Assembly (NCBI GenBank): GCA_045604905.1
Contig: JAZUOX010000060.1
Span: forward strand, 22,386 to 86,385
Source of the DNA: Clostridia bacterium
GTDB taxonomy: Bacteria; Bacillota; Clostridia; UMGS1883
Length of the DNA stretch: 64,000 nt
Direction: 5' to 3'
In this document: positions 2,032 to 43,580 of the stretch, piece after piece
How the letters are laid out: each line of letters starts with the position of its first letter
Numbering within the stretch: the stretch's first letter is position 1
Translations under genes and position numbers: made by a program
Notes under the pieces: generated by a model
Database searches by the model: none
Told to the model about the DNA's origin: nothing
The model's input: the letters and a program-made list of their open reading frames with translations, nothing else

Positions 2032-2052
2032 TTATATATGTCCTTTCCAGCT

Positions 2053-2775: not shown

Positions 2776-2795
2776 AAATTGTTCTCCTTATATGA

Positions 2796-3833: not shown

Positions 3834-3847
3834 AATTTTGCCTCCTT

Positions 3848-5977: not shown

Positions 5978-5980
5978 CTC

Positions 5981-7141: not shown

Positions 7142-7142
7142 T

Positions 7143-9998: not shown

Positions 9999-10009
9999 TA
10001 TATTTCACC

Positions 10010-10972: not shown

Positions 10973-10996
10973 ACCAAATTCTCCCTTTTAATTAAT

Positions 10997-11025
10997 CTTT
11001 ATTTTAATTATAAATTTACCGGTAT
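10997..11025 (-). promoter_or_regulatory. Sigma-A-type promoter (TTGACG-17-TATAAT on the minus strand) driving paralog 1 and the downstream GH2/CE15/uxuA block
   Basis: On the minus strand the sequence reads TTGACG ataaataccggtaaatt TATAAT. About 25 nt further on are an AAAGGGAG ribosome-binding site and the ATG at 10972. Two direct repeats, GACAATATATCGGTC and GTCAATATATTGGTC, lie immediately upstream of the -35. Confidence 0.55.
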
Positions 11026-11075
11026 TTATCGTCAAGACCAATATATTGACAAAAGACCGATATATTGTCATTTCA

Positions 11076-16652: not shown

Positions 16653-16671
16653 TTTTAAAAACTCCTTTATA

Positions 16672-17628: not shown

Positions 17629-17630
17629 AC

Positions 17631-18590: not shown

Positions 18591-18591
18591 A

Positions 18592-20510: not shown

Positions 20511-22598
20511 TTATTCTCCTAACATATTCATAACGGCTACACCTGCACCAAGAACTATACCTACGCCGTGGTCGTCATTTGTGATTGTACCAAGATCAAG
20601 GTAGTATTTTTCTTCCTTATTACAGCCTGAACCCTGACATACACCGTAAACGTTACCTTCACTGTCAACGCATTTTTCACAAAGGGCGTTCCACGCTTCA
20701 ACAACAGTGTCTTTGATATTTTCATCAAGCCAACCAAACTTTACGCCACGCGCAAGTGCAGTAATAAACATTGCACTGCCGCTTGTTTCAACATAACTGT
20801 CGTGATTGTTTATAACCTGATGCCAGATACCTTCATTTTTGTCACGACACTTAAGAACACCGCCTGCAAAATTGCGGAATATTTCCAGAATTCTTTCTCT
20901 GTCCTTATGACTTTCAGGCATAAGCATAAGAAGCTCACTCATAGCAAGGAGCACCCAACCGTTACCTCTGCCCCAGGGAACTCTGTTTGCAAATTCTTCC
21001 GGTGGGAAGAAAATGTGTGAGTATATGTTCTGATCGTGCATATACATTCTTTCCCAAAATCCGAAAATCTGTCTTGCAGCTTCGTCAAAATACTTTTCTT
21101 CGCTGAATATTGCACCAAGACGTGCAAGGAACGGAAGACACATATACATATCGTCTGTCCACATTGTCTTTCCGCGGTGGAATGTACCGTCGGGGAATCT
21201 TGGAACATTGGTCATCATTCTGTCAGCCATCAGTTCTATAAGACGTTTCGCATTATTGTCTCCTGATATAAGATAGTATTCGCAAAGAGTTATACCGAAT
21301 GTTCCGATAGAATCAAGGTTATTGAAGTTGGCAGATGAAGAAAGATATGATGAATATCCCGACACTCTATTATCGTGTGCTGCGTAATCACGGTGCTTTG
21401 AGATAGTCTTTCCGAAAGATATGTAGTAATCGTAAAAATCTCTAATATCAAGTTTTGCTGCAGTCTGCCTCATACCTTCTATACCTACCATAATGGCATA
21501 GAACCACTGTCCCCAGAAGCTTGTTTCAACGTTCTGGCGAAGATAGGTGCCCTTACGGTAGAAATTCCAGTAGCAGGTTTTTCCGCAGGCTGAAGGCATA
21601 GGCTCTGCAAAATCAAGCTTCATTTCAGGAACATAGGGGTAGCTGAAGGGATCTGTTTCTCTTCCGAAAGGTCCCGTCCATATCCACTGAAGGTCGGGAC
21701 AGGTATCACCTGTTACAAATGAAAGCTGCGATTCGCCGCCGGCAGTTGCGGTAAATCCCCATTCTTCTCCTTTTGCGCTCTTTATAAGAAGGTGTGTAAA
21801 ATCTTTAAATTCAGCCTCATACTTCCCTTTTTCTTCCGATGTGTAAAGGGTCTTTCCTTCGCTCATTATCTTGATAGGTGACTTATGCTCGATAACAAGC
21901 TTACCCTTATATTCTGTATATACATAAGCGGCTTTACCATCATTTTCACAAAGCGAGGCAAAGTCAAACTCTTTTACATTTGACTGCTCCGGCTTTACCG
22001 GGAAAACCCAGTCGATATTTTCAAATGTAGGCTCAAAAACTTCGTCCTTTTTATAAAGACGTGAATGTCTGATTACTGACTGCCCTTCAAAGCCGTCGTC
22101 ATCGATATACATTCTTGTGCAATAAACGTAGCTTCCTGCACCCATACGAAGTCCGGGAATGAGGATACGAATGGCACCTTCAAAACCATCTTCGTCCGCT
22201 ACGAGCTTTACTACAATACGGTTTTTACCCTTTTTGAAAAGGATATCCGCATCAACTGCAGGAATATTTCTGAAATCTCCTTTGTGAGTGGGAATTTTTT
22301 CACCGTTAAAGTACACTTCTGCATTTTTATTCTTAGCTATATTAATTATAAGCTCTCTATCATATGGACCGTCTGCATCAACGCTGATAAAAGCGTAGTC
22401 ACCTACCTCGTAAGAGGGAAAAATCTCGCTGAAATCAGGTCCCGCCTTATGAATAATATCCATTTCCTTGTAATAAGGGAACGGATGGTAATAAACCTCA
22501 CTCTTTCCTCTTGTTTCAAGCATATGATCATAGATTTTCCTTAAGACTTCTGCATTTGTAGACGCAACAGTTCTGATGGATTTCTCGCAGTATTTCAT
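20511..22598 (-). CDS. GH105-type unsaturated rhamnogalacturonyl/galacturonyl hydrolase with a ~330-aa N-terminal extension
   Basis: The C-terminal ~360 aa carry the WGRGNGW motif and (alpha/alpha)6-type signatures of the GH105/GH88 YteR family. There is no signal peptide. A GGAGG ribosome-binding site is present. Confidence 0.7.
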   Translation of the reverse strand: MKYCEKSIRTVASTNAEVLRKIYDHMLETRGKSEVYYHPFPYYKEMDIIHKAGPDFSEIFPSYEVGDYAFISVDADGPYDRELIINIAKNKNAEVYFNGEKIPTHKGDFRNIPAVDADILFKKGKNRIVVKLVADEDGFEGAIRILIPGLRMGAGSYVYCTRMYIDDDGFEGQSVIRHSRLYKKDEVFEPTFENIDWVFPVKPEQSNVKEFDFASLCENDGKAAYVYTEYKGKLVIEHKSPIKIMSEGKTLYTSEEKGKYEAEFKDFTHLLIKSAKGEEWGFTATAGGESQLSFVTGDTCPDLQWIWTGPFGRETDPFSYPYVPEMKLDFAEPMPSACGKTCYWNFYRKGTYLRQNVETSFWGQWFYAIMVGIEGMRQTAAKLDIRDFYDYYISFGKTISKHRDYAAHDNRVSGYSSYLSSSANFNNLDSIGTFGITLCEYYLISGDNNAKRLIELMADRMMTNVPRFPDGTFHRGKTMWTDDMYMCLPFLARLGAIFSEEKYFDEAARQIFGFWERMYMHDQNIYSHIFFPPEEFANRVPWGRGNGWVLLAMSELLMLMPESHKDRERILEIFRNFAGGVLKCRDKNEGIWHQVINNHDSYVETSGSAMFITALARGVKFGWLDENIKDTVVEAWNALCEKCVDSEGNVYGVCQGSGCNKEEKYYLDLGTITNDDHGVGIVLGAGVAVMNMLGE

Positions 22599-22727: not shown

Positions 22728-25700
22728 TTAATTAGTAAGTTCTGCCGTAACAGAAGCTATTTTTATATCTGAAGACCCATTGATTGTAAAATCAGTCTTT
22801 AAGCGTTCCATATTGTCAAGGCACGCACCTGCAATGTTAAGAGTAACTGTTTTAAGCGCCCCTGTTCCCGTACGGGGTATTTTTTCAGTATTCTTAACAA
22901 GGCGGTTTCTTGTTTCCCCAATTTCAAAAGTATAATAGGTAAAGTTAAAAGAGTCTGTACCCTCGTCAAGATAGGTGATTGTCACCTTTACATTGCCCTC
23001 CGGCTGATATGCGACTTCATTCTTGACATTTACACGCATAATGTTGCCTTCTGGAAGATTGTAAAGAGTCTTTCCATTGTGTGAAACTTCACTTACTTCA
23101 CTGTCACAGCCCGCATAGCTGAAACTGTCGCAGCTGTCTGAAAGGTCATACCATCCGCCATCAGGTGCATTTTCGATTATATCCGATACATCTGCCCATC
23201 CGATTCTTATAATCTTACCAGTTTCGTCATAGTGGCCGAACCACACCTTTGTACCGTCAATGTTAAATGCGGGATGACAGTGTCCGGGGTTAACGCCTGT
23301 CTGCTTTACTCTTGCAACAACGTGACTTACACCTGTGTAACAGTCAATAAGCACTATGTCTGAATATTCACCGTTGCTGTACCCTGTATCTGCTACTGCC
23401 CAGCGGTTACTTACGGGACTTGTTGCAACGTGGTTATATGCATAGTCACTGTTTATGTAATTACGTTCTGTTCCGTCATATTTAATGGAAACTATACCTG
23501 GATAACCGATTGCGGAACTACCCGAAGATTTATGGAACACAATATGCTCGCCGTCGTAGGACCACATTTCGTGACAGGCAATTTCCCCTGCAGATTTCGC
23601 TGAATAGAATCTTGGAACAAATACATTGTAGTATTCGTCAGTATCTGTATTAAGAACCCACAATCTGTCGTTTACGGAAGTACCTTCGTGACAAAACAGG
23701 AGAAGATTTGGCTTTACGGGGTTAATCGAAACGTGATTGGGGTCATACCATTCTGTATCAAATACATAGTTGTGGCTTAAATCCCACTCGCCCGTCTTAA
23801 GATCAAGAATCGGGAATCTTGACCCCTCTGAAAGGAGCTTATCGTTCCATTCCACGGAAAGCTTTTCCTCTGTATCCATTACCTGAAGCATTCCTGCATA
23901 GTCTGCATATTCTTCCGGAATGACACCCACAACCCTTTTCTCGTAAGTGTCAATATCCATACGGATAATTTCACTGTTGCGGTTAATGTAGAACAATCCG
24001 TTAAGAGGCGTTGTTACAACATTATGCTCACGCTCACATGTGTCAATATACTTTACACTGCTTGTATTTATATCATACTCATAAATTTTAAAGTTATCGT
24101 CGCGGACGAAGAACTTATTTCCATCTTTTGACCAGCCCTGCATAGTAAAGTAGCTTCTTATCATATTTTTGCCGTTAAAGTCTACCCAGTTATATGTCCT
24201 ACCTGAAATAGGACAAGTCATCTCTCCTGATATAACTTCACGGTTAAGCTCATTTTTAAAGCAAAGCTGTTCTATGTAAGGATGAGCAAAATTCTTGTCA
24301 AAAACATATACTTTGACAACCGAAAGTTCCGGATACGGCGACAGTTTGAAATCTTCGAATATAAGTTCTTCTGCAGTTGAGCTGTCTGTATCAAGGTCAA
24401 TTGACTTAAGCTTGATATTTGTCATTGTCGATCCTTGATATTCACAAACTGCAACGCTTACCTTCTTTACTTCTTCCGTCTGATTATAAAGACGGACATT
24501 TACATCAATACTTCCGTCAAGTGCTTCTTCAATAGCACCGATGATTCTTCCGTCTGATGAGAATATACTGTTTGAAACAACATCCCCTGCAGCTGTATAT
24601 GCGGCAAAATTATCAAATGAAAGCTGACCTGACTGTGTTCTGAAGTTTGTAAAACGAATATCCTCAACGTTATAAAGTGCCTGGTCTTTTCTTGTAACAC
24701 ACTCTAAAAGACCTATGGGAGCCTCGTTAATTTTCACCCCGTCAATAAAATAGTCTGCCGTCTGGGTTGCTGTATTAACCTCAATTCTGAGAGTGAACCA
24801 TTCATCAAGCACAGGAGCTGTATTCATAAGGTAAATGCTTCTTACTGTACCCTTATCATCCTGACGTCTTGCAAACATAAATTCACGGTAACCCTCGTAA
24901 TAGAAACAGCAGTCAACAATCTGTGCCCTTTCTTTTGTTCCGTCAGGCAAAAGATAGTTTCCGTACATATGGAAGAAATAATACTGTGGCGTATCTGAGT
25001 GATTAAATTTCAGGTCCGTTTCAAAAGCCACTTTGTGCTGAGATGTTGTAGGGAATTTGTACTGAATAAATTTCTGCGACCCGCTTGTGCCTTCACGCCA
25101 TGTATGCATAATGTGATTTTTGTTTTTATCGACTTCTAGCGCTGTTTTATAAAGTGCGTCACTGTATGTTGTTATTCCCATTTGAGAGTCAGTAATCTCA
25201 TGTATTCCCTTTCCTACACTTTCGGGATAATAGAAAGAATCTGAATAATACACTGCCTTATCTTTTGAAAGAACTCTGTACTCAAGTTCCTTGTCTATTG
25301 AAAACTCTTTTCCTTTTTGTGAAATCGATGCAGTAATTGTAACAGCGGTATCTTCTATAGGACGTTTTACAATACCCACGCCTTGCTCGCTGTCAATATC
25401 AATAACAGAAGGATTACTACTCTCAAAGGTGATTTCTACATCTGAAAAATCAATACCTGTAAGCTTTGCATAATTAAAATCAAGATTTTTTGTTACATGA
25501 TTTACGGACTCTGCCGTAAACACTTCCGGATTAAATCTCTTTGCAATGTTTGATATTTTGCTGTATTCTTCATCGCACAAAACAGTGTAAACAAGCTCTT
25601 TTGAAATTGACGCTCCATTCTTTTCAAGAGTAACGGTAAGCGTTACAGTTGAATCATACTTATCTCTTGTGACCGTGCCGTCTTCAGACAGAATATTGCT

Positions 25701-28025
25701 GTTACTTGATAAATAAGTTACTGTTATGTCATTATCAGAGATATATTCAGCCCATTTGTGATTTATTAAATCAAGGTCGGTGGTAATTAAATCTTTGTCT
25801 TCTGATGTAAAATCAGTTTCTTCAAGATTATTGTACAGATAGAATATTTCAGGATTTTCATTATACCACCGTGGGTTATCTGTAATACTTACATCATCTA
25901 TAAAAAGGTTTCCCTTGCCGTACTGACGGAATGTATTGAATTCAAAGTCGTTGTAGCCCATAAATTCTGTTCTGTCAACAGAGGGATTAAGAACATCGTT
26001 AAAATGAATGGGTTCACTGTTAACCTTTACATCATTTATGAAAAGGTCAAGAGTCAATGAGTCTTCGTAATATCTCCATTCAAAGTCTGCCCACTCGCCC
26101 ACTTCCGGCAAATAATCCTTTGAAAAATAAATTGTTTGGCTTTTTTCACCGTTATGAACGGGCATGTAAATGTTGTATGCACCGTTGGCTTCATATCGGA
26201 AGTTTGTTTCATTCAGCCATACACGTTTGTTTTCACCGTTCACCTTAAATATTCCGTATGTTCTGAACACATAAATCTGCGGTGCGTCAGCATGCTCAAA
26301 CTTCATACGCATGCGGTGAATAATGTCACCCTTTGGTTTTTCACCAAGAATGTAATAAGTGCTGTTGCCTTCCTCCATTCCTATAGGGCGATATGAATGA
26401 AGCAGATACTTCTCATCCTCCACATCAATATAGCTTTTAAATCTCTGCCCGGAAGTTGTGTCCTCGGAAAGCTGTGTTGCATATCTTGAAGACCAGCCGT
26501 ACGTTCCCGAAATCGGAGGTGTGACATTTGTTTCCGAACGTATTATTCCGGGAACATCGTAAAGTATCATTCCTTTGCCTTCGGGATAATAAAAGTTTTC
26601 CGACATATGTACCTTTGTAGTTTGTCTGAGAACTTTAAAGTAAAGTTTATTTGTCCAACTCTTTCCCTCGCCATTTACAGTTGCAGTAATTTCCACGGGG
26701 GTATCACGGTAAAGGTCACGGGTAACGTAGCCAGTATTTTCACTTATAATAATAGCGTCGCTATTACTTGCAAATGTTACGGTATAACCATCAGGAAGGA
26801 AATTCTCCGGATTAAGGTCAAGATTTTCTGTTATAACATCTCTTGGCTCGTTTGTAAGCATTTCTTCAGTTACATTAAAATGATCCAAGTCATTTTCTTT
26901 TATACTAGTTACAGATAAATCATCTATATATACTTTTCCGCCTGTAAATGTACGGAAAATGTTAAAGTCAATATCATTTATATCCACAAAATTCGCACGG
27001 TCTGCACCCTCTTTATCTCTTTCGTAGAAGGGTATGCTTTCCGTCGTTACTTTTGCGTCGTTTATGTACATATCCCAAATTTGGGCATCTGTGTCAATAA
27101 GCCATTCAATCTTTGCTTCTTCCCCAACCTTGGGCATATCTTCTTTTTTAACGTAAGCGGACTTAACTTCACTGCCGCTGTAATAGGACATATAGGTTGA
27201 GGATGCACCGTTTTGGTCATATTTATAGTTTATTTCAAAAATGCGTGCTCTTTCATAAGCGCTGTCTACATAATAATTACCGAAAGCACGGAATACGTAA
27301 ATCTGTGTGCCCGGTTCGTGATCAAATGTGACATCAGCCTTGACGGACACCTTGCCCGAAGGTTTGTCACCGAATACATAATGTAAAAAGTTATAGTCGC
27401 TGTCTACGGCAACATCACGGTATGCATTAAGGAAATAGTCACCGTTTACTTCATCTGTAATTGCTTTGAATCTGTTTGCCGCTACGCTGTCACCTTCAAG
27501 CTCTGTTGCAAAGGCGAATGCCCATCCCTCTTCTGTGTCTCTTGTAGGCGATGGTATAGTTTTACTTATTTTAAGAGATCTTTCCTCTGTGAAAAGTTTT
27601 CCTTTGTTATTAGGATAATAGAAATTCTCCGACATATGGGCTTTTGTTGTCTGTCTGAGAACTGTAAAATTAAGTTCTTTGGTAAAAACTTTGCTACCAT
27701 CACTTACTGTTGCTGTAAGTGTTACCGGTATATCATGGTAGAGGTTGCGCACAACATGCGCAACCTCACCATCAATTGCTATGGCGTTAGAGTTACTTTC
27801 AATGCTTACGCTGACACCTGCGGGAAGAATATCGCTTAAATCAAGGTCAAGATTCTTTGTTATTGCATCTGTAACCTCATTTGTGAGCATTTCTTCGCAA
27901 ATGAGTTCCGCAAAAGAAGCTGCATCACTGCCTGCTGTGTAGCCATCCATTGGCATACATCCGCATACAAGCACAAATGCACATATTATTGACATAATTC
28001 TTCTGTAAAGCTTTGAATGTAACAT
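22728..28025 (-). CDS. Giant secreted 1765-aa multi-module protein with a PL22 (oligogalacturonide lyase-like) beta-propeller domain
   Basis: Signal peptide. Four [Ig-like ~80 aa + ConA-like jelly-roll ~250 aa] modules. The C-terminal region carries the PL22 motifs LLLFCHEGTSVNDRLWVLN, CHEMWSYDGEH and NPGHCHPAFNIDGTKVWF. A terminal ~110-aa domain with the VTITYLDEG motif is shared with two other proteins in the cluster. Confidence 0.7.
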   Translation of the reverse strand: MLHSKLYRRIMSIICAFVLVCGCMPMDGYTAGSDAASFAELICEEMLTNEVTDAITKNLDLDLSDILPAGVSVSIESNSNAIAIDGEVAHVVRNLYHDIPVTLTATVSDGSKVFTKELNFTVLRQTTKAHMSENFYYPNNKGKLFTEERSLKISKTIPSPTRDTEEGWAFAFATELEGDSVAANRFKAITDEVNGDYFLNAYRDVAVDSDYNFLHYVFGDKPSGKVSVKADVTFDHEPGTQIYVFRAFGNYYVDSAYERARIFEINYKYDQNGASSTYMSYYSGSEVKSAYVKKEDMPKVGEEAKIEWLIDTDAQIWDMYINDAKVTTESIPFYERDKEGADRANFVDINDIDFNIFRTFTGGKVYIDDLSVTSIKENDLDHFNVTEEMLTNEPRDVITENLDLNPENFLPDGYTVTFASNSDAIIISENTGYVTRDLYRDTPVEITATVNGEGKSWTNKLYFKVLRQTTKVHMSENFYYPEGKGMILYDVPGIIRSETNVTPPISGTYGWSSRYATQLSEDTTSGQRFKSYIDVEDEKYLLHSYRPIGMEEGNSTYYILGEKPKGDIIHRMRMKFEHADAPQIYVFRTYGIFKVNGENKRVWLNETNFRYEANGAYNIYMPVHNGEKSQTIYFSKDYLPEVGEWADFEWRYYEDSLTLDLFINDVKVNSEPIHFNDVLNPSVDRTEFMGYNDFEFNTFRQYGKGNLFIDDVSITDNPRWYNENPEIFYLYNNLEETDFTSEDKDLITTDLDLINHKWAEYISDNDITVTYLSSNSNILSEDGTVTRDKYDSTVTLTVTLEKNGASISKELVYTVLCDEEYSKISNIAKRFNPEVFTAESVNHVTKNLDFNYAKLTGIDFSDVEITFESSNPSVIDIDSEQGVGIVKRPIEDTAVTITASISQKGKEFSIDKELEYRVLSKDKAVYYSDSFYYPESVGKGIHEITDSQMGITTYSDALYKTALEVDKNKNHIMHTWREGTSGSQKFIQYKFPTTSQHKVAFETDLKFNHSDTPQYYFFHMYGNYLLPDGTKERAQIVDCCFYYEGYREFMFARRQDDKGTVRSIYLMNTAPVLDEWFTLRIEVNTATQTADYFIDGVKINEAPIGLLECVTRKDQALYNVEDIRFTNFRTQSGQLSFDNFAAYTAAGDVVSNSIFSSDGRIIGAIEEALDGSIDVNVRLYNQTEEVKKVSVAVCEYQGSTMTNIKLKSIDLDTDSSTAEELIFEDFKLSPYPELSVVKVYVFDKNFAHPYIEQLCFKNELNREVISGEMTCPISGRTYNWVDFNGKNMIRSYFTMQGWSKDGNKFFVRDDNFKIYEYDINTSSVKYIDTCEREHNVVTTPLNGLFYINRNSEIIRMDIDTYEKRVVGVIPEEYADYAGMLQVMDTEEKLSVEWNDKLLSEGSRFPILDLKTGEWDLSHNYVFDTEWYDPNHVSINPVKPNLLLFCHEGTSVNDRLWVLNTDTDEYYNVFVPRFYSAKSAGEIACHEMWSYDGEHIVFHKSSGSSAIGYPGIVSIKYDGTERNYINSDYAYNHVATSPVSNRWAVADTGYSNGEYSDIVLIDCYTGVSHVVARVKQTGVNPGHCHPAFNIDGTKVWFGHYDETGKIIRIGWADVSDIIENAPDGGWYDLSDSCDSFSYAGCDSEVSEVSHNGKTLYNLPEGNIMRVNVKNEVAYQPEGNVKVTITYLDEGTDSFNFTYYTFEIGETRNRLVKNTEKIPRTGTGALKTVTLNIAGACLDNMERLKTDFTINGSSDIKIASVTAELTN

Positions 28026-28039
28026 ACTGTCACCCCGAA

Positions 28040-30763
28040 TTATTTAATGACTACCACACAGTCATTGATATAACCTGAATATCTGTAAATATACATTGTC
28101 ACACCATTGTCAGTATATGTGTAGTCTCCGTTTTCATCAAGTGATGCACTTACGGGAACGTCCAGGTATGTGCCCTGTCTTACTTCCCAATTCACATAGT
28201 CAATGACTACCGGCTTTGGTCCGTTTCCTATTGTATGAGCTCTTACAGTTGCACCACGGTCTGTTGAAAGCACAACCGCTAAATCGTTTCTTGCATATAC
28301 ATGACCGTAGAATACGCCTTCACCCGTATCTTCGTTACCTGTTATTGACTGGAAAGGCGCTGCGTCGCTTGTTCTTACGCGCAACTGAGCTTCAATAATA
28401 TTGAAGTTCTCATCAACTTTGATTGCTGCAATATCACCGAATTTAAATCCACCCGGAACAACACTGTCGATAACACCGGGACGCTCTTCGCGGAATGTAT
28501 ATTCCTCATCCTTATATCTTCCTGTTACCATATAAATCTCTTCACCGTCAGCATTTGTACCTTTAACACTCTTTATTACAGTCATAGCCTTTGGAAGAAA
28601 ACCTGTACCGGATTGCGAAACAACTTCTACTGCACCTGTTGTCCAGAATTCATCTGCATCATACATTCTTACATTTGACCTTCTTGCAAGATCGTAAAGC
28701 TTTTCATGAGGAATTACCTTAATATAATTCTCGTCAAAGTTTTTATCTTCCGGAACAAGGAATATTGTTGTATTTTCATCCATACGGTACTTTCCGCTCA
28801 TAGAATTACGTTTTGCATTATAATATTCTGAGTAGCTTCCGCTGGGTGTTTTATATACAAGGCAGAATCTTGTGGGGTCAAAACCGGTTGTTTTCGTACA
28901 TATTTCAGCATCTGTGGTTGTTTCAATTTCTTTAAGCTCACCTATTGCGCTAAATTTTACTTTTACAATCTGTCTTCTGAAATCACCTGATGTATTTCCG
29001 TCAACATAGAGGTCTGTTTCTGCGAGTAGGTCTTCACTGTTTTTAGTTGTAACACCGTTTATTGTAATTTTCTTTGCTGTTGCAACTGTAGCGACATCAC
29101 CTGTGTTAAGGCAAAGCTTTATAAGACATCTGCTTGAAAGCTTTGCGTTTTTGTCTTTTCCGGCATCAAGGAAGTATGCATACTGGAACTGATCTTTGTA
29201 ATTTTCAACACCTGCGATCCTACCCTGGAAGTCAAGACGAAGCGTAACCTCTGATTCAAGCGCAGGTTTAACAAAACCTTTTATATTATTTTCAACATTT
29301 TTAATGAATGTTGCACTGTATTCGTAAGGTGTCTCAACCTCTTCACCTTCAACCATATGAGTTACAGTTATAATTTCCTCATCGTCTTCATTGGTTTCAA
29401 TACCTGAAACTCTGCAATCAACCTTGTCTTCTGAAACAATGATTTTAACTCTTGCGTCATCTTTACTTGCAAATACTGAAAGCACACTGTTGGATTTAAG
29501 AAGAGATATTGCTTTTGTTTCCCCAAGTGTTGTGAGGAATTCATACTTATCATATTCTCCGTACTTAATCTCGTTACCGTTACTGTCAGCAACAAGCTGG
29601 CTTGCCTGATTGTTTGTAAGAAGCAGATAGTTTTCAAACTCTTCAGCAATAACTACATCATAGGTACTGTCAAGGTCAACATCGACAAAAGTAAGTGTAC
29701 CTGATTCAATTTTCATATCATCCACAAGAAATGCCGGATAAGAACTTCCGTTGTATATAAAGTCAGCAAAAGGACTTACTTCCACATCTATTTTCTTATT
29801 TTTTACCGTATATACAACATTTGTTTTTGTGAAGTCAGGAGATTCAACATCTAGGTCTTCTGCTTTTACAGTAAGAACTTTGTTCCTTGCGTCATCTTTT
29901 ACTACATAGAGGAGCTTGTCTTCATCTGCATCGTAATACGCGATAACATTATAACCTACAAGTCCGTCTGTATTTACAGATTCGTTTACCAATTTCTTTT
30001 TGCCGATAATTGCAGTTTTTCCCGGATACACTGTTGAACCTTTAAGATTAGTGATACCGTCATCCATAAACTGTGCTCTCATCTTTTTTATGTTGTGATA
30101 TACATCGAGAACAGTTTTGCCTTCTGTCACAGCATATGTAATATACTTACCCTTAACAGCGAGAATATCCATTACCTCAACTTCACAAGCTTTGGCAAGC
30201 ATATTCACTATGTTATAACGTGTAAGATACTCAGTTCTTCCGGGACTGTTCAAAAGACCGAGATCAATTGCTACTGAATAGTAGCCGTTGGGGTACCCTC
30301 CTCTTGAATTTGCGATACCCTCATATCCAAGAACTGAAATTACAGTTTTTACAGCCTGGTCAAGTGTAACAAAATCATCCGGTCTGAATTTGCCGTCAGA
30401 TCCAACCATAAGATTGGCTACACCTACAGAGTAAATGTGCTCTCTGAACTGTGTTGATTCACCTACATCTTCATACTTGAGCTCTGCACTGAATGTTTTT
30501 TCATCAAGATCACAAAGTCTTGAAATTGCACTTGCAAATTCACCCCTTGTAACATTATTTATATGGTCTGTATTGGGAGAAACCCATATTCCCACTGCAG
30601 TAAGGAACTCAATGTTCTTTTTATAGGTTTCAATCTGTGCTTCTGTGTATTTTGATTCTTCGACAGGAGCTTCGGTTTCTTCTGCTGCAAATACTGAAAA
30701 TGCAGATGCAAACATAAGAATTGCCATAATAATTGAAATTGATTTTCTAAATATTTTATTCAT
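28040..30763 (-). CDS. Secreted 907-aa cell-surface protein with N-terminal SLH-like repeats
   Basis: Signal peptide MNKIFRKSISIIMAILMFASAFSVFA. Degenerate SLH-type segments (NVTRGEFASAISRL, FRPDDFVTLDQAVKTVISVLG). The large C-terminal region is unassigned. Confidence 0.55.
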   Translation of the reverse strand: MNKIFRKSISIIMAILMFASAFSVFAAEETEAPVEESKYTEAQIETYKKNIEFLTAVGIWVSPNTDHINNVTRGEFASAISRLCDLDEKTFSAELKYEDVGESTQFREHIYSVGVANLMVGSDGKFRPDDFVTLDQAVKTVISVLGYEGIANSRGGYPNGYYSVAIDLGLLNSPGRTEYLTRYNIVNMLAKACEVEVMDILAVKGKYITYAVTEGKTVLDVYHNIKKMRAQFMDDGITNLKGSTVYPGKTAIIGKKKLVNESVNTDGLVGYNVIAYYDADEDKLLYVVKDDARNKVLTVKAEDLDVESPDFTKTNVVYTVKNKKIDVEVSPFADFIYNGSSYPAFLVDDMKIESGTLTFVDVDLDSTYDVVIAEEFENYLLLTNNQASQLVADSNGNEIKYGEYDKYEFLTTLGETKAISLLKSNSVLSVFASKDDARVKIIVSEDKVDCRVSGIETNEDDEEIITVTHMVEGEEVETPYEYSATFIKNVENNIKGFVKPALESEVTLRLDFQGRIAGVENYKDQFQYAYFLDAGKDKNAKLSSRCLIKLCLNTGDVATVATAKKITINGVTTKNSEDLLAETDLYVDGNTSGDFRRQIVKVKFSAIGELKEIETTTDAEICTKTTGFDPTRFCLVYKTPSGSYSEYYNAKRNSMSGKYRMDENTTIFLVPEDKNFDENYIKVIPHEKLYDLARRSNVRMYDADEFWTTGAVEVVSQSGTGFLPKAMTVIKSVKGTNADGEEIYMVTGRYKDEEYTFREERPGVIDSVVPGGFKFGDIAAIKVDENFNIIEAQLRVRTSDAAPFQSITGNEDTGEGVFYGHVYARNDLAVVLSTDRGATVRAHTIGNGPKPVVIDYVNWEVRQGTYLDVPVSASLDENGDYTYTDNGVTMYIYRYSGYINDCVVVIK

Positions 30764-30782
30764 TATCTATCTCCCGCCTTTC

Positions 30783-32519
30783 TTAATATTTTAATAATCT
30801 GTAGATTAACTGCGCAGCCTGTGCTCGTGTGAGTTTTCCACCGGGCTGGAATTCAGTTTCTGTCATACCGGTTATTACTCCGGCCTTTGTAAGTGTTTCT
30901 ACACTTTCTTTTGCATAGTCAGCTATCGCAGCATCATCACTGAAAGTTTTTCCTGCACCTTCCTCAAGTTCAATGCCTTTGTATTCAATAACTCTGTCAA
31001 GCATTACAGCAGCATCCTGTCTAGTTATAGGCTGACCTATACCGAAAGTGAAATTATCCTGACCTTTTACAATGCCTTTTTCCTGCGCACTTGCAACATA
31101 AATGTTCGCCCAGTGTCCGAGAAGGTCTGTGTATATTGTAAGAGCTTCTTTATTGTAAAGGCCAAATGCCATTACATACATCTTTACAAATTCTTCTCTT
31201 GTAACATTTGCATCAGGATCATATCTGTTAGTAGCAACACCGTCAATTACACCGATACTATGGAGTTCATTTACTGCAGCAAATGCCCAGTGACCCTTTG
31301 GTACATCGTTAAATATGCCGCCTACAGGAGCTTCGGGAAGTATTGACATATTAGCATTTGAATTGTGAAGAGTATCTTCTACATCCCGTATCTCTGTTTT
31401 GTCATCTTTTACAGTAGCACCGCCACCGCCACCGCCGCCACCGCCACCGCCGGAGGAGGGTTTCTTGCCTGATTCCTTTTCTGCATTCTTTATAACTTCT
31501 TCAAATGCATCTGCAACTTCTTTTGAAAGAACAAAGTTTCTGCCAACAAATGTCTTGTTGATTTCTCCTGCGCCATACTTATCACAGGCTTCTTCATAGT
31601 CCTTTTTGTCAATACCGAAGTATTCGATATATTTTTCAACAGTAGTACCTACATTTGTCGCATTGAGCTTGTTGAAGTTTGCCATTGCGATACTCTGGAA
31701 AAGGTCGTCTTTTACATCACCGATAGTTTCAGGACTGCTATCCTTTGAGTTCTTGTAGAAAAGTTTATACACATCTTCTTTCTTTTCTGAATAGTCCCCA
31801 TCTTCCACATCGAGAGTAAGAAGAACACTTTCATCTTCACAAATTTCTTTGCATCTTTCTTCTGTTGTAGCTTCATTAAGGTCACGGATAAGCTGAACAC
31901 CTGAAAGAATATTCATAACTGTGCCCATATCATTACATTGGTTATCATAGTCTTCTTCACGGATATTAAGGAAAAGGTCACAAATTACATCTGTGTTCTC
32001 CGCAAAATCAGTTTTGTCGACTGAAAGCATATCTGCCTTTTCTGAAAGAAGTGCTTCTATTTCTGCACGATCTGCAGTTTCAATTGCAGGAAGTGTAACC
32101 TCATCTATATAAGTCTGGCTTTCAAAGTATATTTCCGTTGTATCCTTTGAAACTGCTGCTTTTGTACCATTACCGGAAGCAGCTATTACAATATAACCTG
32201 CAGGGTCATCCTCTGCGAGCTGTACTTCTTTTTCTACATATCCGCTGCCGTCTGTTTTAACCTCAAGCGCGCGCACAAAATCAGCGGGCGAAGATACCGC
32301 AGTTTCTTTTTCGTACATTACAATTGAAATTTTCTGCACATATTTTGCAGGGGTAGTAACCTGAATTGAAACTACTGATGTATCGTAGTTTACAGATGCG
32401 GTCACCTCAAACTCTGTTTCTGCCGAAACGCTAAAACACATCATTGAAAGTGTCATAGTGCATACAACAATCATACAGAGGATTTTTTTAACATTATTCA
32501 TATCTGTAACTCCTCCCAA
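30783..32519 (-). CDS. S-layer homology (3x SLH) cell-wall-anchored protein with a poly-Gly linker
   Basis: Signal peptide. A G12 linker. Three canonical C-terminal SLH domains (FNDVPKGHWAFAAVNELHSIGVIDG..., ...ITRQDAAVMLDRV..., ...LTRAQAAQLIYRLL). Confidence 0.8.
   Translation of the reverse strand: MGGVTDMNNVKKILCMIVVCTMTLSMMCFSVSAETEFEVTASVNYDTSVVSIQVTTPAKYVQKISIVMYEKETAVSSPADFVRALEVKTDGSGYVEKEVQLAEDDPAGYIVIAASGNGTKAAVSKDTTEIYFESQTYIDEVTLPAIETADRAEIEALLSEKADMLSVDKTDFAENTDVICDLFLNIREEDYDNQCNDMGTVMNILSGVQLIRDLNEATTEERCKEICEDESVLLTLDVEDGDYSEKKEDVYKLFYKNSKDSSPETIGDVKDDLFQSIAMANFNKLNATNVGTTVEKYIEYFGIDKKDYEEACDKYGAGEINKTFVGRNFVLSKEVADAFEEVIKNAEKESGKKPSSGGGGGGGGGGGATVKDDKTEIRDVEDTLHNSNANMSILPEAPVGGIFNDVPKGHWAFAAVNELHSIGVIDGVATNRYDPDANVTREEFVKMYVMAFGLYNKEALTIYTDLLGHWANIYVASAQEKGIVKGQDNFTFGIGQPITRQDAAVMLDRVIEYKGIELEEGAGKTFSDDAAIADYAKESVETLTKAGVITGMTETEFQPGGKLTRAQAAQLIYRLLKY
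31423..31452 (-). repeat. (GGN)n triplet microsatellite encoding the poly-Gly linker
   Basis: The plus strand reads caccgccaccgccaccgccgccaccgccaccgcc, and the repeat is in frame within the SLH protein. Slippage here would change only linker length. Confidence 0.6.
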
Positions 32520-32520
32520 A

Positions 32521-35427
32521 TCACTTAACTTCTTTTACGAATACATCGCGGATAAACGCCTTTGACTGAACACCGCTTAACTTAAAATCTGCACCAAGCT
32601 GATACATATTCTCGAGATTCATATGATGTATTGTAAGCTTTGCCGTTTTCCATTTACCTGTATTATTACGCTGAATATACTCTACTCTCGGACGGAGCTT
32701 ACCAATGCCTTCGTAATAGTAGTCGGGGTGATTTTTCTCACGTTTTGCGTAGGTACTGATGTTTTCCCATTCAAAATAATCAAGCCTTATTGGGAAATAA
32801 CCGTTGTCCAAATATTCAATCTCAATTTCTACTGAGGTTGATTCCTTTTCAAGGTAGTCGGTTTTAACCTTAACTTCCATATAGTTATTCTTGGGTATTT
32901 CGTAATATGTACCCTTATCATCCTTATGCTCAAGCATAAAGTGGTCTTCGCCCTCGTAACTATAGGTTGAGCAAGCTTCGTTAAGGTCAATCTGACCGCC
33001 GGGAGTGGGATTTTCTGTAATGTCGCCTACGTAAGCCCAGCCGACTTCAACAGTCTTATAGTCTTCACTCCAGAGACCGAAGAACGCAGTCTTTGCATCC
33101 CAGCTGAACTGCGGATGCGAATGTCCGGGGTTATTACCCTTTGTATGGTTTACAATAACTTTTGACCAGCCTGCCTCTGTATCCATAAGTACAAGCTTTG
33201 TAAAACCGTTTGCACTGTCGATACCAACGTCGGAAATAAGCCAGCGGTTGGAGTTAAGTGCTGTTGCACAGTGTGAATAATCGTAGTCACCGTTTACAAG
33301 GTAACGGTCCTTACCGTCCCAACGTGCAAAGTAAATACCTCTTTCTGTGGGAGTTTCTGTTTCAGCACCCCAGTTGTAACGGATTTCGTCGTGATGACCG
33401 TGTCCGCGGACTGTAAGAAGATACTCACCATCTGCAAGCCAGTATTCGTGAACACCTGTTTCACCTGTTCTTTCTGGTGAATACTTTTTCTGAGGGAAGC
33501 CTACCCATCTTTCACCTGTGTCAATATCCATAACCCATGTTCTGTCATTTACATGTGCACCCTCGTGACAATAGAACACAAGATTTTTCTTTACGGGGTT
33601 CTGACAAAGATGTCCGGGATAAGTATAGTCGGTTACAAAATCCTTTGAAAAATCAGGTATGAAAATATTTTTCCAGATATTATTTTCGATATCGTACTGA
33701 TGTATTGAACCGCCCTGGTCCCTTATTTCCCAATAGCGGGCATCACGTACACCAATTGTAAGTGCCGTTTCGTTAAAGTCAACCTGAAGCATTACACCTG
33801 TTGAAAGAGATATATCCTGATATGCATCGGGAAGGTGTACTACAACAGTTTCTTCATATGTGTCAAGATTAATCTTACAGATTCTTGAATACTGATCAAG
33901 ATACCACAGATTATTCTTTTTTGTCAGGCAGAAGAAATGCTCAATACCGGGTCTACCACTGCACATATACTTAACCATATAGGTTTTCATATTGTACTCA
34001 TATATGTTTGAGTTTTTATCACGGAAATAGAAGCGGGTATCATCATAGGATGTCATAGGCATCGTATAATAGTTCTTAATTGCGTTTTCTCCGAGAAGAT
34101 TAATTGTGTAATATGTTCTTCCTGTTTCGGGGTCGTAGTGTTCTTCCGGAGGCATATAGAATTCACCCATTAAAAGCCAGTTGATAAGGCTTGAGTCCCC
34201 TGTTTCTCTGAATGTATCAACTGTTACTCTGCCTGAATTGTAAAGGTCTGAAAGATAACACTTTTCTGTCTTTAAATTCTTTAACGGAAGCATATTGTTT
34301 GCAAATGCAACAAGATTATCCATCAGAACTTTCTTTGTAGGCTGGAATACCATATTACCAGAATTTATAAGATTAAGTCCAGCCACAACTGTAAGGGGAT
34401 TTGTCTTTACAGCCGGATCTTCAGAGCCCATAAATGCTGCGTACCACTCACAAAGTTCACTCTGTGGAAACATCTCTTTGGCGCCGAGGGTACCGCCTGT
34501 GTTCTTTATGATACCCAGGCTTTCTGCCATACCCACATAGGGTTTATATTCCAGAGATACATCAGTAAATGAGCAAGAAAGATTCTTTGTTTCAGCCTCT
34601 TCCTTAAGACCTGCAAACTGAATGATGTACTTAAGTGCTTCTTCCCTTGTAAGCTCTTTTCCGAGAATTGCATCTGCATTCTCTGCACTGTACTCATCGA
34701 AAAGTCCGAGTACTTTAAGAGAGTTAGCTGACTTTGAGTTAAAGAGGTCGAATGTTTCCTCACCTGCGTTACGGCTGAGGTTTGTAACCTCAATCTTTGA
34801 AAACGCGTTGTAACCACCGGTTACAATACGGATGTCTCCACCGTAGTCCATTGCCTGACGGAAGGATGCATCAGAAATGTAAAAGGTACATTCCCACCAC
34901 TTTGCTTTTTCATAACGTTCTTCCTCGGTACCGCCCTTGGGGTCACCCATTTTAAGAACGGAGATACGTCCGTAAGTATCGGTTGTGCCCGGAATGGTGT
35001 AGTCAAAATGAATATAACCTGCACCACCGAAGTCATAATAGTTAAACGTTATTTTATAGGTTGTATCTTCCGGAGAACAGAATGACGGATCAAAGCGAAG
35101 ATACATAATATTCTGATAATAAACTTTTCTTCCCACAATACCTTTAAGATTAATCTTTTCATTGTATGTAACGTCCGTGAGAGTTGTTTTGCCGAATCCG
35201 TCTTCAAATGACATCTGATTTTCCTGCGCAGTATCTGTGAAAATGATGTATGCGTTATTCTCATCAACAGGTGTCGTCTGCTTGATTTCTACCTGAGGCA
35301 TAATAACAGGATTTTCACGCACTACAACCGATGCCGCCTTTGCCTCGGGAGGAGCAACATTAACAACAGTTACTGCCATAATTACCGCCAGCAAGCATAG
35401 AAGACCTTTCTTGAATATTTTTTTCAT
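32521..35427 (-). CDS. Secreted 968-aa SLH-like-domain protein with a PL22 (oligogalacturonide lyase-like) beta-propeller and the shared C-terminal domain
   Basis: Signal peptide MKKIFKKGLLCLLAVIMAVTVVNVAPPEAKA. SLH-like segment (LTREEALKYIIQFAGL...FTDVSLEY). PL22 motifs VFYCHEGAHVNDRTWVMD, VHEYWLADGEY and NPGHSHPQFSWDAKTAFF. C-terminal IEIEYLDNG domain. Confidence 0.7.
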   Translation of the reverse strand: MKKIFKKGLLCLLAVIMAVTVVNVAPPEAKAASVVVRENPVIMPQVEIKQTTPVDENNAYIIFTDTAQENQMSFEDGFGKTTLTDVTYNEKINLKGIVGRKVYYQNIMYLRFDPSFCSPEDTTYKITFNYYDFGGAGYIHFDYTIPGTTDTYGRISVLKMGDPKGGTEEERYEKAKWWECTFYISDASFRQAMDYGGDIRIVTGGYNAFSKIEVTNLSRNAGEETFDLFNSKSANSLKVLGLFDEYSAENADAILGKELTREEALKYIIQFAGLKEEAETKNLSCSFTDVSLEYKPYVGMAESLGIIKNTGGTLGAKEMFPQSELCEWYAAFMGSEDPAVKTNPLTVVAGLNLINSGNMVFQPTKKVLMDNLVAFANNMLPLKNLKTEKCYLSDLYNSGRVTVDTFRETGDSSLINWLLMGEFYMPPEEHYDPETGRTYYTINLLGENAIKNYYTMPMTSYDDTRFYFRDKNSNIYEYNMKTYMVKYMCSGRPGIEHFFCLTKKNNLWYLDQYSRICKINLDTYEETVVVHLPDAYQDISLSTGVMLQVDFNETALTIGVRDARYWEIRDQGGSIHQYDIENNIWKNIFIPDFSKDFVTDYTYPGHLCQNPVKKNLVFYCHEGAHVNDRTWVMDIDTGERWVGFPQKKYSPERTGETGVHEYWLADGEYLLTVRGHGHHDEIRYNWGAETETPTERGIYFARWDGKDRYLVNGDYDYSHCATALNSNRWLISDVGIDSANGFTKLVLMDTEAGWSKVIVNHTKGNNPGHSHPQFSWDAKTAFFGLWSEDYKTVEVGWAYVGDITENPTPGGQIDLNEACSTYSYEGEDHFMLEHKDDKGTYYEIPKNNYMEVKVKTDYLEKESTSVEIEIEYLDNGYFPIRLDYFEWENISTYAKREKNHPDYYYEGIGKLRPRVEYIQRNNTGKWKTAKLTIHHMNLENMYQLGADFKLSGVQSKAFIRDVFVKEVK

Positions 35428-35441
35428 ATTTATCCTCCTTG

Positions 35442-37067
35442 TTATCTGGCGTCATAGAAACGGATAGATTTAACTCTGAGAGGCTGACCGTTTGTTGAAA
35501 TGATTATATCATCCGTAGAAATGGGAAGATTCTTACCAATTGCAAATTTCGCATCGGAAAGCTCAATTCTTGCAGTCTTCCATTCGCCACTGTTTGTAAG
35601 AGAATATGTAGCCTGAGAATTACCGGATGTACTCATATAGTCAAGAACGATATCTCCTTCCCCTTCGTCGAGGTATTCAATATCCACATTAACTCTTTTT
35701 ACTCCGTTAAGTCTTGTGTCGGTGATATCAAAATCAAATGATTCTGTCTCGTCAATTTCGATACATTCTTCTCCGTCTATCTCCACAACCTCTGCCTGGT
35801 CCATATAAAATACCACTTCACGGATTTCGGGAACATCTTTCATACGAAGACCTGAAGGATCACCGTCATAGTCGCTTCTTCTTGAAACGGCTACGTTTGA
35901 AACCTTAAGCCCGGGAGTGCCCTGCCAGAAACGGAAGTTACCCTGACCTGTACCGTTATCCATATAGTAGTGGAAGCCTGCATCTACAAGGCGAAAGCTT
36001 TCCGTCTTCCAAAGACCTGTACCTGTCTTTGTAAAGCTTGCGCTACCTGTTTTAAGAGTTGTTGCGGTTGAATCTTTTCTTGTGTATGAAATATCAACCT
36101 TTTCTGTATCCTCATCAAAGAATGTGATGTCGATAATCACTCTTTCATCATCTGCATTGATAAGTGCAGGATCAACCTTACAGGTGAAACGGCCAATAAG
36201 AGTTGCGCTGCCGCGAAGGTAATCGGGAGCTACACGGCACGCTCTGCCACCTGCTTCGGCATACTCTGTATAACCGTAACCCTGCTTACTTCCCGGTGTA
36301 GGTCCTGTAAGTTCGGGACGAGCTATTGGAAGCCAGAGCCATACGCCGTTTTCTGTAACTTCTGTTGTGTTATCCGGATCAGTTGTTGACATTTCGATAT
36401 TCGGAACATCTATGGTTGTTACATTGAATTCTGCTGCCTGGGATACAAGACCTTCTCCGTCTATTGCTTCGATAAGATAATTCTTCTGTGTGTTTTTATC
36501 AAGGTCTTCTTCAGCAAATGTTGTCTCATTACTTCCTGATGAAACAAGTATTCCGTCGCTGTATACATTATAAGATGTCACATCGTCAAAATCGTCATAC
36601 GCTGCATCCCATGTAATCTCAAGGTTTGAAGGCATATTCACACTGTCAACAACATTCTGAGGCGCTGCAGGCTCCATATTGTCAAGAGGTGTGCAAAGTG
36701 TAATGCCATCCCAGAGAAATACCTTGTACTCTTCTGTTGAAAGGTCTCCGACTGTAACACCTGCTTTAAGTGTATCACTTACAAGCGCACCGGAAAGTGT
36801 TACTGACTGCGAATCTGTCGCCTTTATCTTTCCGGTATCCTTGTCACACAGCATAACAATAAGCATCACACTCTGCGGTGAAGTGCCGTTAAGATTCGCT
36901 GTTACCTGAGTGTACACAAGACCTGACTGGATTTCAGGAATTTCGTTATCTCCTGCATCCAGATACTTAATATCTGTGAATTCCACTTTTGCGGCGGACG
37001 CCATTGCCACAGGCGCAAGTGAGAGCACCATTGCAAGGACCACCATGGTTGCCAATAGTTTTTTCAT
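35442..37067 (-). CDS. Secreted 541-aa FN3-domain surface protein with the shared C-terminal YLDEG domain; first gene of the operon
   Basis: Signal peptide MKKLLATMVVLAMVLSLAPVAMASA. FN3-like segment (APQNVVDSVNMPSNLEITWDAAYDD...). C-terminal VDIEYLDEGEGDIVLDY...NSGEWKTARIELSDAKF. Confidence 0.6.
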   Translation of the reverse strand: MKKLLATMVVLAMVLSLAPVAMASAAKVEFTDIKYLDAGDNEIPEIQSGLVYTQVTANLNGTSPQSVMLIVMLCDKDTGKIKATDSQSVTLSGALVSDTLKAGVTVGDLSTEEYKVFLWDGITLCTPLDNMEPAAPQNVVDSVNMPSNLEITWDAAYDDFDDVTSYNVYSDGILVSSGSNETTFAEEDLDKNTQKNYLIEAIDGEGLVSQAAEFNVTTIDVPNIEMSTTDPDNTTEVTENGVWLWLPIARPELTGPTPGSKQGYGYTEYAEAGGRACRVAPDYLRGSATLIGRFTCKVDPALINADDERVIIDITFFDEDTEKVDISYTRKDSTATTLKTGSASFTKTGTGLWKTESFRLVDAGFHYYMDNGTGQGNFRFWQGTPGLKVSNVAVSRRSDYDGDPSGLRMKDVPEIREVVFYMDQAEVVEIDGEECIEIDETESFDFDITDTRLNGVKRVNVDIEYLDEGEGDIVLDYMSTSGNSQATYSLTNSGEWKTARIELSDAKFAIGKNLPISTDDIIISTNGQPLRVKSIRFYDAR

Positions 37068-43579: not shown

Positions 43580-43580
43580 A

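What the first reader, a model, noticed from the sequence alone, without database searches (positions are those of the whole stretch)
22728..37067. Unassigned ~110-aa C-terminal domain (YLDEG motif) shared by three different secreted proteins of the same operon
Three proteins end with a similar beta-rich domain: the 1765-aa giant (VKVTITYLDEGTDSFNFTYYTFEIG...), the 968-aa PL22/SLH-like protein (VEIEIEYLDNGYFPIRLDYFEWEN...GKWKTAKLTIHHMNLEN) and the 541-aa FN3 protein (VNVDIEYLDEGEGDIVLDYMST...GEWKTARIELSDAKFA). Their N-terminal parts are otherwise different. A shared C-terminal module across co-transcribed secreted proteins, two of which lack SLH anchors, suggests one of three roles: a sorting or secretion signal domain, a carbohydrate-binding module, or a cohesin/dockerin-like protein-protein interaction module. 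An interaction module would assemble a surface complex on the SLH proteins encoded between these genes. I do not recognise it as a known CBM or dockerin.
Basis: seen in the sequence. Interest (0 to 1): 0.7.

Follow-up and report, generated by a model that had tools for sequence, protein, structure and literature searches.

The report
Unannotated sugar-binding-type module in lyase operon
Three secreted proteins of one operon in a gut Clostridia genome share a ~130-residue beta-sandwich module that no domain library tested here lists; it has the shape and distribution of a carbohydrate-binding module, which makes it a probable new module family rather than a new kind of biology.

Summary
The shared domain is real. 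There are five copies, not three: two in the 541-aa protein, two in the 968-aa protein and one in the 1765-aa protein. A profile built only from unrelated proteins finds exactly these five segments in the window (E 1e-13 to 4e-24).

The 968-aa and 1765-aa proteins also share the PL22-like propeller in front of the domain (35% identity over 528 aa). An exhaustive profile search finds about 1,970 protein clusters with the domain. They usually carry 2-6 copies at any position, fused to GH5, GH39, GH10, GH99, "Glyco_hydro_cc", PL22-like and GDSL-esterase modules, in several phyla.

The best reading is an uncatalogued carbohydrate-binding-type module that targets a uronate-polysaccharide degrading system. 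The sorting-signal idea is refuted. The cohesin-like assembly idea is unsupported but not excluded. Sugar binding itself is inferred, not shown.

The parts
35442..37067 (-). g541: secreted non-catalytic protein (signal peptide, Ig-like N-domain, FN3-like domain, two copies of the module)
   Evidence: ORF. Weak fn3 / RGI_lyase beta-sheet hit at residues ~135-215. 13 full-length homologs only.
35874..36296 (-). Module copy g541-M (residues ~258-398)
   Evidence: External profile i-E 7e-22. hhalign to 541C 95%, to 968C 94%, to 1765C 89.5%. Carries a loop, FHYYMDNGTGQGNFRFWQ, that is conserved among orthologs and rich in aromatic residues.
35445..35822 (-). Module copy g541-C (residues ~416-541; YLDEG motif)
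32521..35427 (-). g968: secreted PL22-like protein flanked by two copies of the module
   Evidence: ORF. Pfam PL22 25.6 bits, below the cut-off. PDB 3C5M/3PE7 E 4e-7 and 1e-6.
34768..35256 (-). Module copy g968-N (residues ~58-220)
   Evidence: External profile i-E 1e-13 (50-sequence profile) and 2e-19 (335-sequence profile). hhalign to 541M 83%.
33013..34131 (-). PL22-like beta-propeller of g968 (residues ~433-805)
32524..32976 (-). Module copy g968-C (residues ~818-968; YLDNG motif, with a ~20-aa Tyr-rich insertion)
   Evidence: External profile i-E 6e-19. hhalign to 1765C 99%. The insertion is conserved in orthologs.
30783..32519 (-). g578: secreted protein with three C-terminal SLH repeats (cell-wall anchor); no copy of the module
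   Evidence: Pfam SLH E 1.4e-31. No profile hit.
28040..30763 (-). g907: secreted protein with a divergent N-terminal SLH region; no copy of the module
   Evidence: Pfam SLH E 0.006-0.04, below threshold. PDB 6CWC SLH trimer E 0.002. No profile hit.
22728..28025 (-). g1765: giant secreted protein (aBig_2 repeats, unassigned beta-rich modules, PL22-like propeller, one copy of the module)
   Evidence: Pfam aBig_2 E 1.7e-27 and PL22 36.1 bits, above the cut-off of 30. PDB 3PE7 E 4e-8.
23151..24212 (-). PL22-like beta-propeller of g1765 (residues ~1272-1625)
22731..23120 (-). Module copy g1765-C (residues ~1636-1765; YLDEG motif, W replaced by L in the WKT motif)
37399..38604 (+). Divergently transcribed AraC-type response regulator, conserved next to the operon in relatives
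   Evidence: Pfam. Synteny in L001, L003-L005 and L007.
20511..22598 (-). GH88 unsaturated glucuronyl hydrolase immediately downstream. It would process the products of a lyase.
   Evidence: Pfam GH88 E 2.4e-63. GH88 is also next to module-bearing genes in L010.

Best explanation
The shared segment is an independently folding, non-catalytic beta-jelly-roll module of about 125-150 residues. It belongs to a large family that the libraries tested here do not annotate, within the galactose-binding-domain-like (CBM6/35-type) fold class.

Its most likely job is to bind the polysaccharide that this locus degrades. That would hold the two PL22-like lyases (g968, g1765) and a catalytically inert binding protein (g541, two copies) on the substrate. 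Several copies per protein and per operon would add avidity. The substrate is probably a uronic-acid-containing glycan, because the operon is followed by GH88, a GH2-like enzyme, a CE15 glucuronyl esterase and UxuA. Cell-surface attachment would come from the SLH proteins g578 and g907, not from this module.

Shown: homology of five copies, the fold class, family size, modular architectures and genomic association.
Inferred: carbohydrate binding, ligand identity and the avidity role.
For: - Five homologous copies.
- Two independent AF2 models (pLDDT 76 and 84) give the same 10-strand sandwich.
- The best Foldseek hits are almost all CBMs: CBM70, CBM28, CBM11, CBM61, CBM29 and CBM16.
- The exhaustive profile search finds 1,968 cluster representatives at E<=1e-3 and 486 at E<=1e-10. 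Hits carry 2-6 copies at N-terminal, internal or C-terminal positions.
- In 62 hits the partner domains are Glyco_hydro_cc (12), GH5 (8), PL22 (8), GH39 (5), GDSL esterases (4), GH10 (3), GH99 (2), CBM9 (2), plus SLH, Por_Secre_tail or dockerin as separate anchors. This is typical CBM behaviour.
- In a distant metagenomic locus, four adjacent genes (a GDSL esterase, an fn3 protein and two PL22-like proteins) carry 12 copies. They sit next to GH88, GH2, GH38, an AraC regulator and a sugar-binding protein, with no SLH protein nearby.
- Copy-specific loops rich in aromatic residues are strongly conserved among orthologs.
Against: - No binding experiment exists, and no ligand-binding residues could be mapped.
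- The residues conserved across the whole family (Y-x-D-x-G hairpin, WKT strand, DFRI strand) lie on predicted strands or in a hairpin turn, and I judge them structural rather than a binding site.
- CAZy's own CBM models could not be searched. The afdb50 library was unavailable.
Confidence: 0.6

Rival explanations
1. Structural or oligomerisation accessory domain. The module is a beta-sandwich that stabilises, spaces or dimerises the catalytic domains, as the C-terminal domain of GH115 enzymes is described in the literature (my recollection, not checked here). It would have no sugar-binding function of its own.
For: - In g968 and g1765 the module directly follows the propeller and was duplicated with it as one cassette.
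- Family-wide conserved residues look structural.
Against: - The module also occurs detached from any catalytic domain (g541; the fn3 protein P0020), in arrays of up to six, and with at least seven unrelated catalytic families.
- That is hard to reconcile with a role tied to one enzyme's architecture.
Confidence: 0.17
2. Cell-surface assembly module. The module docks g541, g968 and g1765 onto the SLH-anchored proteins g578 and/or g907, which would give a cohesin/dockerin-like surface complex.
For: - g541 and g1765 have no anchor of their own.
- The five-gene order, with the two SLH proteins in the middle, is conserved in six related MAG or metagenome contigs.
- Loops of each copy are conserved among orthologs, which would also fit a protein interface.
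Against: - No cohesin or dockerin Pfam hit in any of the five proteins.
- The family occurs in Verrucomicrobiota and in proteins with a Por_Secre_tail (type IX secretion) sorting domain, i.e. with other anchoring systems.
- The locus L010 has 12 copies and no SLH protein within 10 kb.
Confidence: 0.08
3. Self-glycan binding. The module binds the bacterium's own cell-wall or capsular polysaccharide and so retains the anchorless proteins at the surface.
For: - CBM-type fold.
- g541 and g1765 lack SLH.
Against: - The family is spread over phyla with very different envelopes.
- It is consistently fused to enzymes that depolymerise or de-esterify glycans, inside nutrient-utilisation loci with ABC sugar transporters and AraC regulators.
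Confidence: 0.1
4. C-terminal sorting or secretion signal domain.
For: Three of the five copies are at the extreme C-terminus.
Against: - Two window copies are N-terminal or internal.
- Across the family, copies occur at every position and up to six per protein.
- Members with a Por_Secre_tail (type IX secretion) sorting domain carry it in addition to the module.
- All five operon proteins have ordinary N-terminal signal peptides (sequence).
Confidence: 0.02

Closest known systems
CBM6 / CBM35 / CBM36 / CBM22-type carbohydrate-binding modules (galactose-binding-domain-like beta-jelly roll), e.g. PDB 8J3X, 2W46, 1UXZ, 4QB1, 2W5F
   Different: Only 7-15% identity. No Pfam CBM model and no PDB sequence matches, even at E = 10. 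It has its own motif set (YF-V-DD ... Y-x-D-x-G ... WKT ... DA-F-N ... DFRI). The Ca2+ and ligand sites of CBM6/35 were not verified.
[not shown]
   Different: 8-9% identity. Phage tailspike context. No sequence relationship detectable.
CBM70 hyaluronan-binding module of the S. pneumoniae hyaluronate lyase (PDB 4D0Q)
   Same: Top Foldseek hit (E 1.4e-4). It is a CBM attached to a lyase that acts on a uronate-containing glycan, which is the same functional logic as here.
Unclassified 'X modules' of multimodular CAZymes
   Same: A recurrent module of unknown function in carbohydrate-active enzymes. Historically many of these became CBM families once binding was shown (general knowledge of the CAZy classification).
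   Different: This is a label, not a family. It predicts nothing about specificity.

Membership tests
Carbohydrate-binding module (CAZy definition) | Contiguous, independently folding non-catalytic module within carbohydrate-active proteins | tested here: met
   AF2 models of isolated copies fold as compact beta-sandwiches. The module is found with GH5, GH39, GH10, GH99, Glyco_hydro_cc, PL22 and GDSL modules.
Carbohydrate-binding module (CAZy definition) | Experimentally demonstrated carbohydrate binding by at least one member | not testable with these tools
   No solved or characterised member was found. Literature searches gave nothing specific.
Carbohydrate-binding module (CAZy definition) | Sequence membership of an existing numbered CBM family | tested here: inconclusive
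   No Pfam CBM model and no PDB CBM sequence matches. CAZy/dbCAN family HMMs, including families without Pfam or PDB entries, could not be searched.
CBM6/CBM35 | Beta-jelly-roll fold of the galactose-binding-domain-like class | tested here: met
   [not shown]
CBM6/CBM35 | Significant match to the family sequence profiles (Pfam CBM_6, CBM_35 and related) | tested here: not met
   No such hit at E up to 10 on ten domain sequences, nor on the full proteins.
CBM6/CBM35 | Conserved structural Ca2+ site and cleft-A ligand residues | not tested
Cohesin / dockerin | Match to cohesin (PF00963) or dockerin (PF00404) profiles in the operon proteins | tested here: not met
   No hit in any of the five proteins at E<=0.1. 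Dockerin appears in only 1 of 62 family members, as a separate domain.
Cohesin / dockerin | Specific binding to a partner module | not testable with these tools
   No multimer prediction is available.
C-terminal sorting domains (type IX secretion C-terminal domain, cell-wall sorting signals) | Obligatory location at the extreme C-terminus, one per protein | tested here: not met
   Copies occur at N-terminal and internal positions, 2-6 per protein.
PL22 oligogalacturonate lyase (for the propellers preceding the module) | Match to PF14583 and to solved PL22 structures | tested here: met
   g1765 scores 36.1 bits (cut-off 30). g968 scores 25.6 bits, below the cut-off. PDB 3PE7/3C5M E 4e-8 to 1e-6.
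PL22 oligogalacturonate lyase (for the propellers preceding the module) | Conserved metal-binding His/Gln and catalytic His/Arg residues | not tested
   Residue-level alignment to 3PE7 was not examined.
SLH anchor | Three SLH repeats above the Pfam threshold | tested here: met
   Met for g578 only (E 1.4e-31, 3 repeats). g907 is sub-threshold but matches the 6CWC SLH trimer at E 0.002. g968 scores E 0.11. g541 and g1765 have none.

The most novel reading that the evidence does not exclude
The module is a protein-protein docking unit. Through it the anchorless g541 and g1765, together with g968, assemble on the SLH-anchored g578 and g907. This would be a cohesin/dockerin-independent surface multi-enzyme complex in gut Oscillospiraceae, built from a jelly-roll module that elsewhere acts as a CBM.
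Probability: 0.07. Interest if true: 0.7.

Novelty: new member of a known kind. Interest (0 to 1): 0.35.

Why it matters
If binding is confirmed, this would define a sizeable new carbohydrate-binding module family. It has about 2,000 clusters at 50% identity across Firmicutes, Verrucomicrobiota and proteins with a type IX secretion sorting domain. No domain library tested here annotates it, so its proteins go partly unannotated.

The family is preferentially linked to poorly understood multimodular PL22-like lyases, GDSL esterases and GH88/GH2 loci. A model for it would improve annotation of gut and environmental polysaccharide-utilisation loci. The g541-type proteins (fn3 plus two or three copies, no catalytic domain) are candidate Gram-positive surface glycan-binding proteins. 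The ligand could help identify the still unknown uronate-containing substrate of these loci.

Tried and rejected
- Pfam and NCBIfam on the whole proteins and on ten isolated domain sequences at E up to 10: nothing covers the module. The only faint full-length alignment was DUF7440 at E 0.09.
- PDB sequence searches with single sequences and with two profiles: nothing below E 0.1. An initial faint hit to the 118-aa beta-agarase chain 8WAE (E 0.67) disappeared with the profiles, so it was treated as chance.
- Word-indexed homolog searches with the g968 C-terminus and with the domain alignment returned only fragments.
- The afdb50 fold library was not available.
The single-protein scan gave only two MAG loci, which served to name the organism group: uncultured Clostridia / Oscillospiraceae.
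- Lead: the three 'CBMs' required for activity of the gut Ruminococcaceae UCG13 xanthanase RuGH5a (bioRxiv 10.1101/2021.06.02.446819) might be this module, because GH5 plus three tandem copies is a recurrent architecture among the hits. The construct sequences in the held supplement are cut about 38 residues into CBM-A. The visible parts and the CE-A N-domain score only 3-8 bits. The lead was dropped as untestable here.
- The promoter and terminator scan of the operon was no better than shuffled sequence. The operon structure rests on 1-19-nt intergenic gaps and on conserved synteny.
- Literature searches for PL22/SLH/CBM combinations found no description of the module.
Full report
**Anatomy of the locus.** Five tightly spaced minus-strand genes fill 22728-37067:
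- g541 (35442-37067)
- g968 (32521-35427)
- g578 (30783-32519)
- g907 (28040-30763)
- g1765 (22728-28025)

The intergenic gaps are 14, 1, 19 and 14 nt. All five proteins start with a signal-peptide-like N-terminus (sequence). A consensus promoter and terminator scan was uninformative. The same five-gene order, next to a divergent AraC-type response regulator, is kept in six related MAG or metagenome contigs carrying 54-80% identical g541 orthologs. The closest named records are uncultured Clostridia / Oscillospiraceae MAGs.

Pfam results:
- g1765 has aBig_2 repeats and a PL22 oligogalacturonate-lyase propeller (36 bits, above the cut-off).
- g968 has a sub-threshold PL22 match.
- g578 has three SLH repeats.
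- g907 has only a divergent SLH region.
- Nothing covers the C-terminal segments.

Downstream lie GH88, seven paralogs of an unannotated ~318-aa protein, a GH2-like enzyme, a CE15 esterase and UxuA. This is a utilisation locus for a uronate-containing polysaccharide.

- The g1765 and g968 C-termini align at 32% identity, E about 1e-20.
- The g541 C-terminus is much more distant (E about 1e-3 by BLASTP). Profile-profile comparison of ortholog alignments raises this to 92% probability against g968-C.
- The same analysis uncovered two further copies. One is internal in g541 (res ~258-398; 95% to g541-C, 94% to g968-C, 89.5% to g1765-C). The other is N-terminal in g968 (res ~58-220; 83% to g541-M).
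- MAFFT aligns all five copy types over their whole length. D68 and Y78 are invariant. Y66, W97, K98 and A107 are nearly invariant (g541-C numbering).
- As an independent test I built a profile from 50 domain copies taken only from unrelated database proteins. Among 172 window ORFs it hits exactly these five segments (i-E 1e-13 to 4e-24) and nothing else at E<1.

First, g968 and g1765 are not 'otherwise different': residues 433-952 of g968 align with 1272-1750 of g1765 at 35% identity (E 3e-83). Propeller plus module is therefore one duplicated cassette. Second, the module is not confined to C-termini.

**How widespread is it?** An exhaustive HMMER search of 1.84 billion cluster representatives with the window-derived profile returned 1,968 proteins at E<=1e-3, 486 at E<=1e-10 and 64 at E<=1e-30. 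In the best 149, the module occurs 2-6 times per protein at N-terminal, internal or C-terminal positions.

The family consensus is G-x-x-C ... YF-V-DD ... V-x-V-x-Y-x-D-x-G ... L-x-Y ... T-x-T-x-x-WKT ... L-x-DA-x-F-x-N ... DFRI ... I-x-x-V-x-V.

Pfam on 62 hits shows these partner domains:
- Glyco_hydro_cc (12), fn3 (10), GH5 (8), PL22 (8), GH39 (5), GDSL esterases (4), GH10 (3), GH99 (2), CBM9 (2)
- SLH (2), Por_Secre_tail (2) and dockerin (1), which appear as separate anchoring or sorting domains

One hit is annotated as a Verrucomicrobiota glycosyl hydrolase. No Pfam family recurs over the module itself. Ten isolated copies give no Pfam hit, even at E = 10. NCBIfam and PDB sequence profiles are also silent.

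Both window architectures recur among the hits. These are the g968-type (N-copy, PL22-like, C-copy; 917-976 aa) and the g541-type (fn3 plus two copies; about 540 aa).

**Fold.** Two AlphaFold2 models were made from different proteins and alignments: g541-C (pLDDT 76) and g1765-C (pLDDT 84, core above 90). They have the same order of ten strands.
- Foldseek's best hits are almost all CBMs: CBM70, CBM28, CBM11, CBM61, CBM29 and CBM16.
- Identities are 3-19%.

The module is therefore a beta-jelly roll of the galactose-binding-domain-like class, with no close solved relative.

**Genomic association.** In a distant metagenomic locus (L010), four adjacent genes carry 12 copies: a GDSL esterase (4), an fn3 protein (3), a PL22-like protein (3) and a g968-type PL22-like protein (2). 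They sit beside GH88, GH2, GH38, an AraC regulator and a solute-binding protein, with no SLH protein within 10 kb.

Two more loci were checked. In one, a g541-type protein lies next to GH2 and an ABC sugar transporter. In the other, a PL22-like carrier lies next to a GDSL esterase. The module thus travels with a set of enzymes and a type of substrate, not with SLH anchors.

**Mechanism.** The evidence best fits a carbohydrate-binding-type module (confidence about 0.6). It would tether the two PL22-like lyases and the non-catalytic g541 to the polysaccharide. Multivalency would come from several copies per protein and per operon. The SLH proteins g578 and g907 would provide wall attachment. GH88 would process the unsaturated products.

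Supporting but non-decisive detail: each copy has its own loop insertions rich in aromatic residues, and these are almost invariant among orthologs. Examples are FHYYMDNGTGQGNFRFWQ in g541-M and HPDYYYEGIGK in g968-C. This is as expected for specificity-determining surfaces.

Binding itself, the ligand and the avidity role are inferred. The residues conserved across the family look structural.

**Rivals.**
- A purely structural or oligomerisation beta-sandwich (0.17). This is disfavoured by the free-standing arrays and the variety of partner domains.
- Retention on the cell's own glycans (0.10).
- Cohesin-like docking on the SLH proteins (0.08). It has no positive evidence and is contradicted by the SLH-free locus, but it was not directly tested.
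- A sorting signal (0.02). It is refuted by the position data.

**Novelty and value.** Unannotated beta-sandwich 'X modules' in multimodular CAZymes are a familiar phenomenon, and the fold is the commonest CBM fold. The finding is therefore a probable new member of a known kind, not a new principle.

It still has practical value. The family is large, has no model in Pfam or NCBIfam, and has no structure or characterised member that I could find. It is linked to poorly understood PL22-like multimodular lyases. I could not query CAZy's own CBM models, so a recently numbered family cannot be excluded.

Noticed in passing
window 15699-20508 (five tandem genes), 10010-10972 and 42629-43657, all minus strand: There are seven paralogs (34-67% identity) of a ~318-aa protein with no signal peptide and no Pfam family. 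One copy has a faint GH20 catalytic-domain match. This is an unusual local expansion of an unannotated, probably cytoplasmic TIM-barrel-like enzyme inside the polysaccharide locus. Two similar-sized genes without Pfam hits sit beside the DUF4838 gene in L003.
   Followed up: partly
window 22728-28025, residues ~30-1150 of g1765: By eye, the N-terminal two-thirds of the giant protein holds about three repeats of an aBig_2 domain followed by a ~270-aa beta-rich unit ending in F-R-T/Q-F/Y-x-G-G/K-x-x-I-D-D-L/V-S-V/I-T. No Pfam model hits this unit. It looks like a concanavalin/LamG-type module. BLASTP self-comparison did not report the repeats.
   Followed up: no
window 20511-22598: The GH88 protein is 695 aa, about twice the usual size. 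The Pfam GH88 match covers only residues 359-692, so an N-terminal half of about 350 aa is unassigned.
   Followed up: no
window 28040-30763 (g907) and 30783-32519 (g578): These two conserved secreted proteins lie between the module-bearing genes and are essentially unannotated outside their SLH regions. g578 has a run of 12 glycines before its SLH triplet. About 700 aa of g907 have no match in Pfam or the PDB.
   Followed up: partly
L010 (JGI 3300004151, Ga0066602_10000158) 74-12253: An environmental locus has 12 copies of the module in four adjacent genes (GDSL esterase, fn3 protein, two PL22-like proteins) beside GH88, GH2 and GH38. It is a functional analogue of the window operon without SLH proteins, and it would be useful for comparative work on the unknown substrate.
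   Followed up: partly
window 5981-7198, 7143-9998, 2796-3833, 40597-42600: A CE15 glucuronyl esterase, a GH2-like enzyme, UxuA mannonate dehydratase and a DUF4838 protein surround the operon. Together with GH88 they point to a glucuronate-containing substrate rather than plain homogalacturonan.
   Followed up: no
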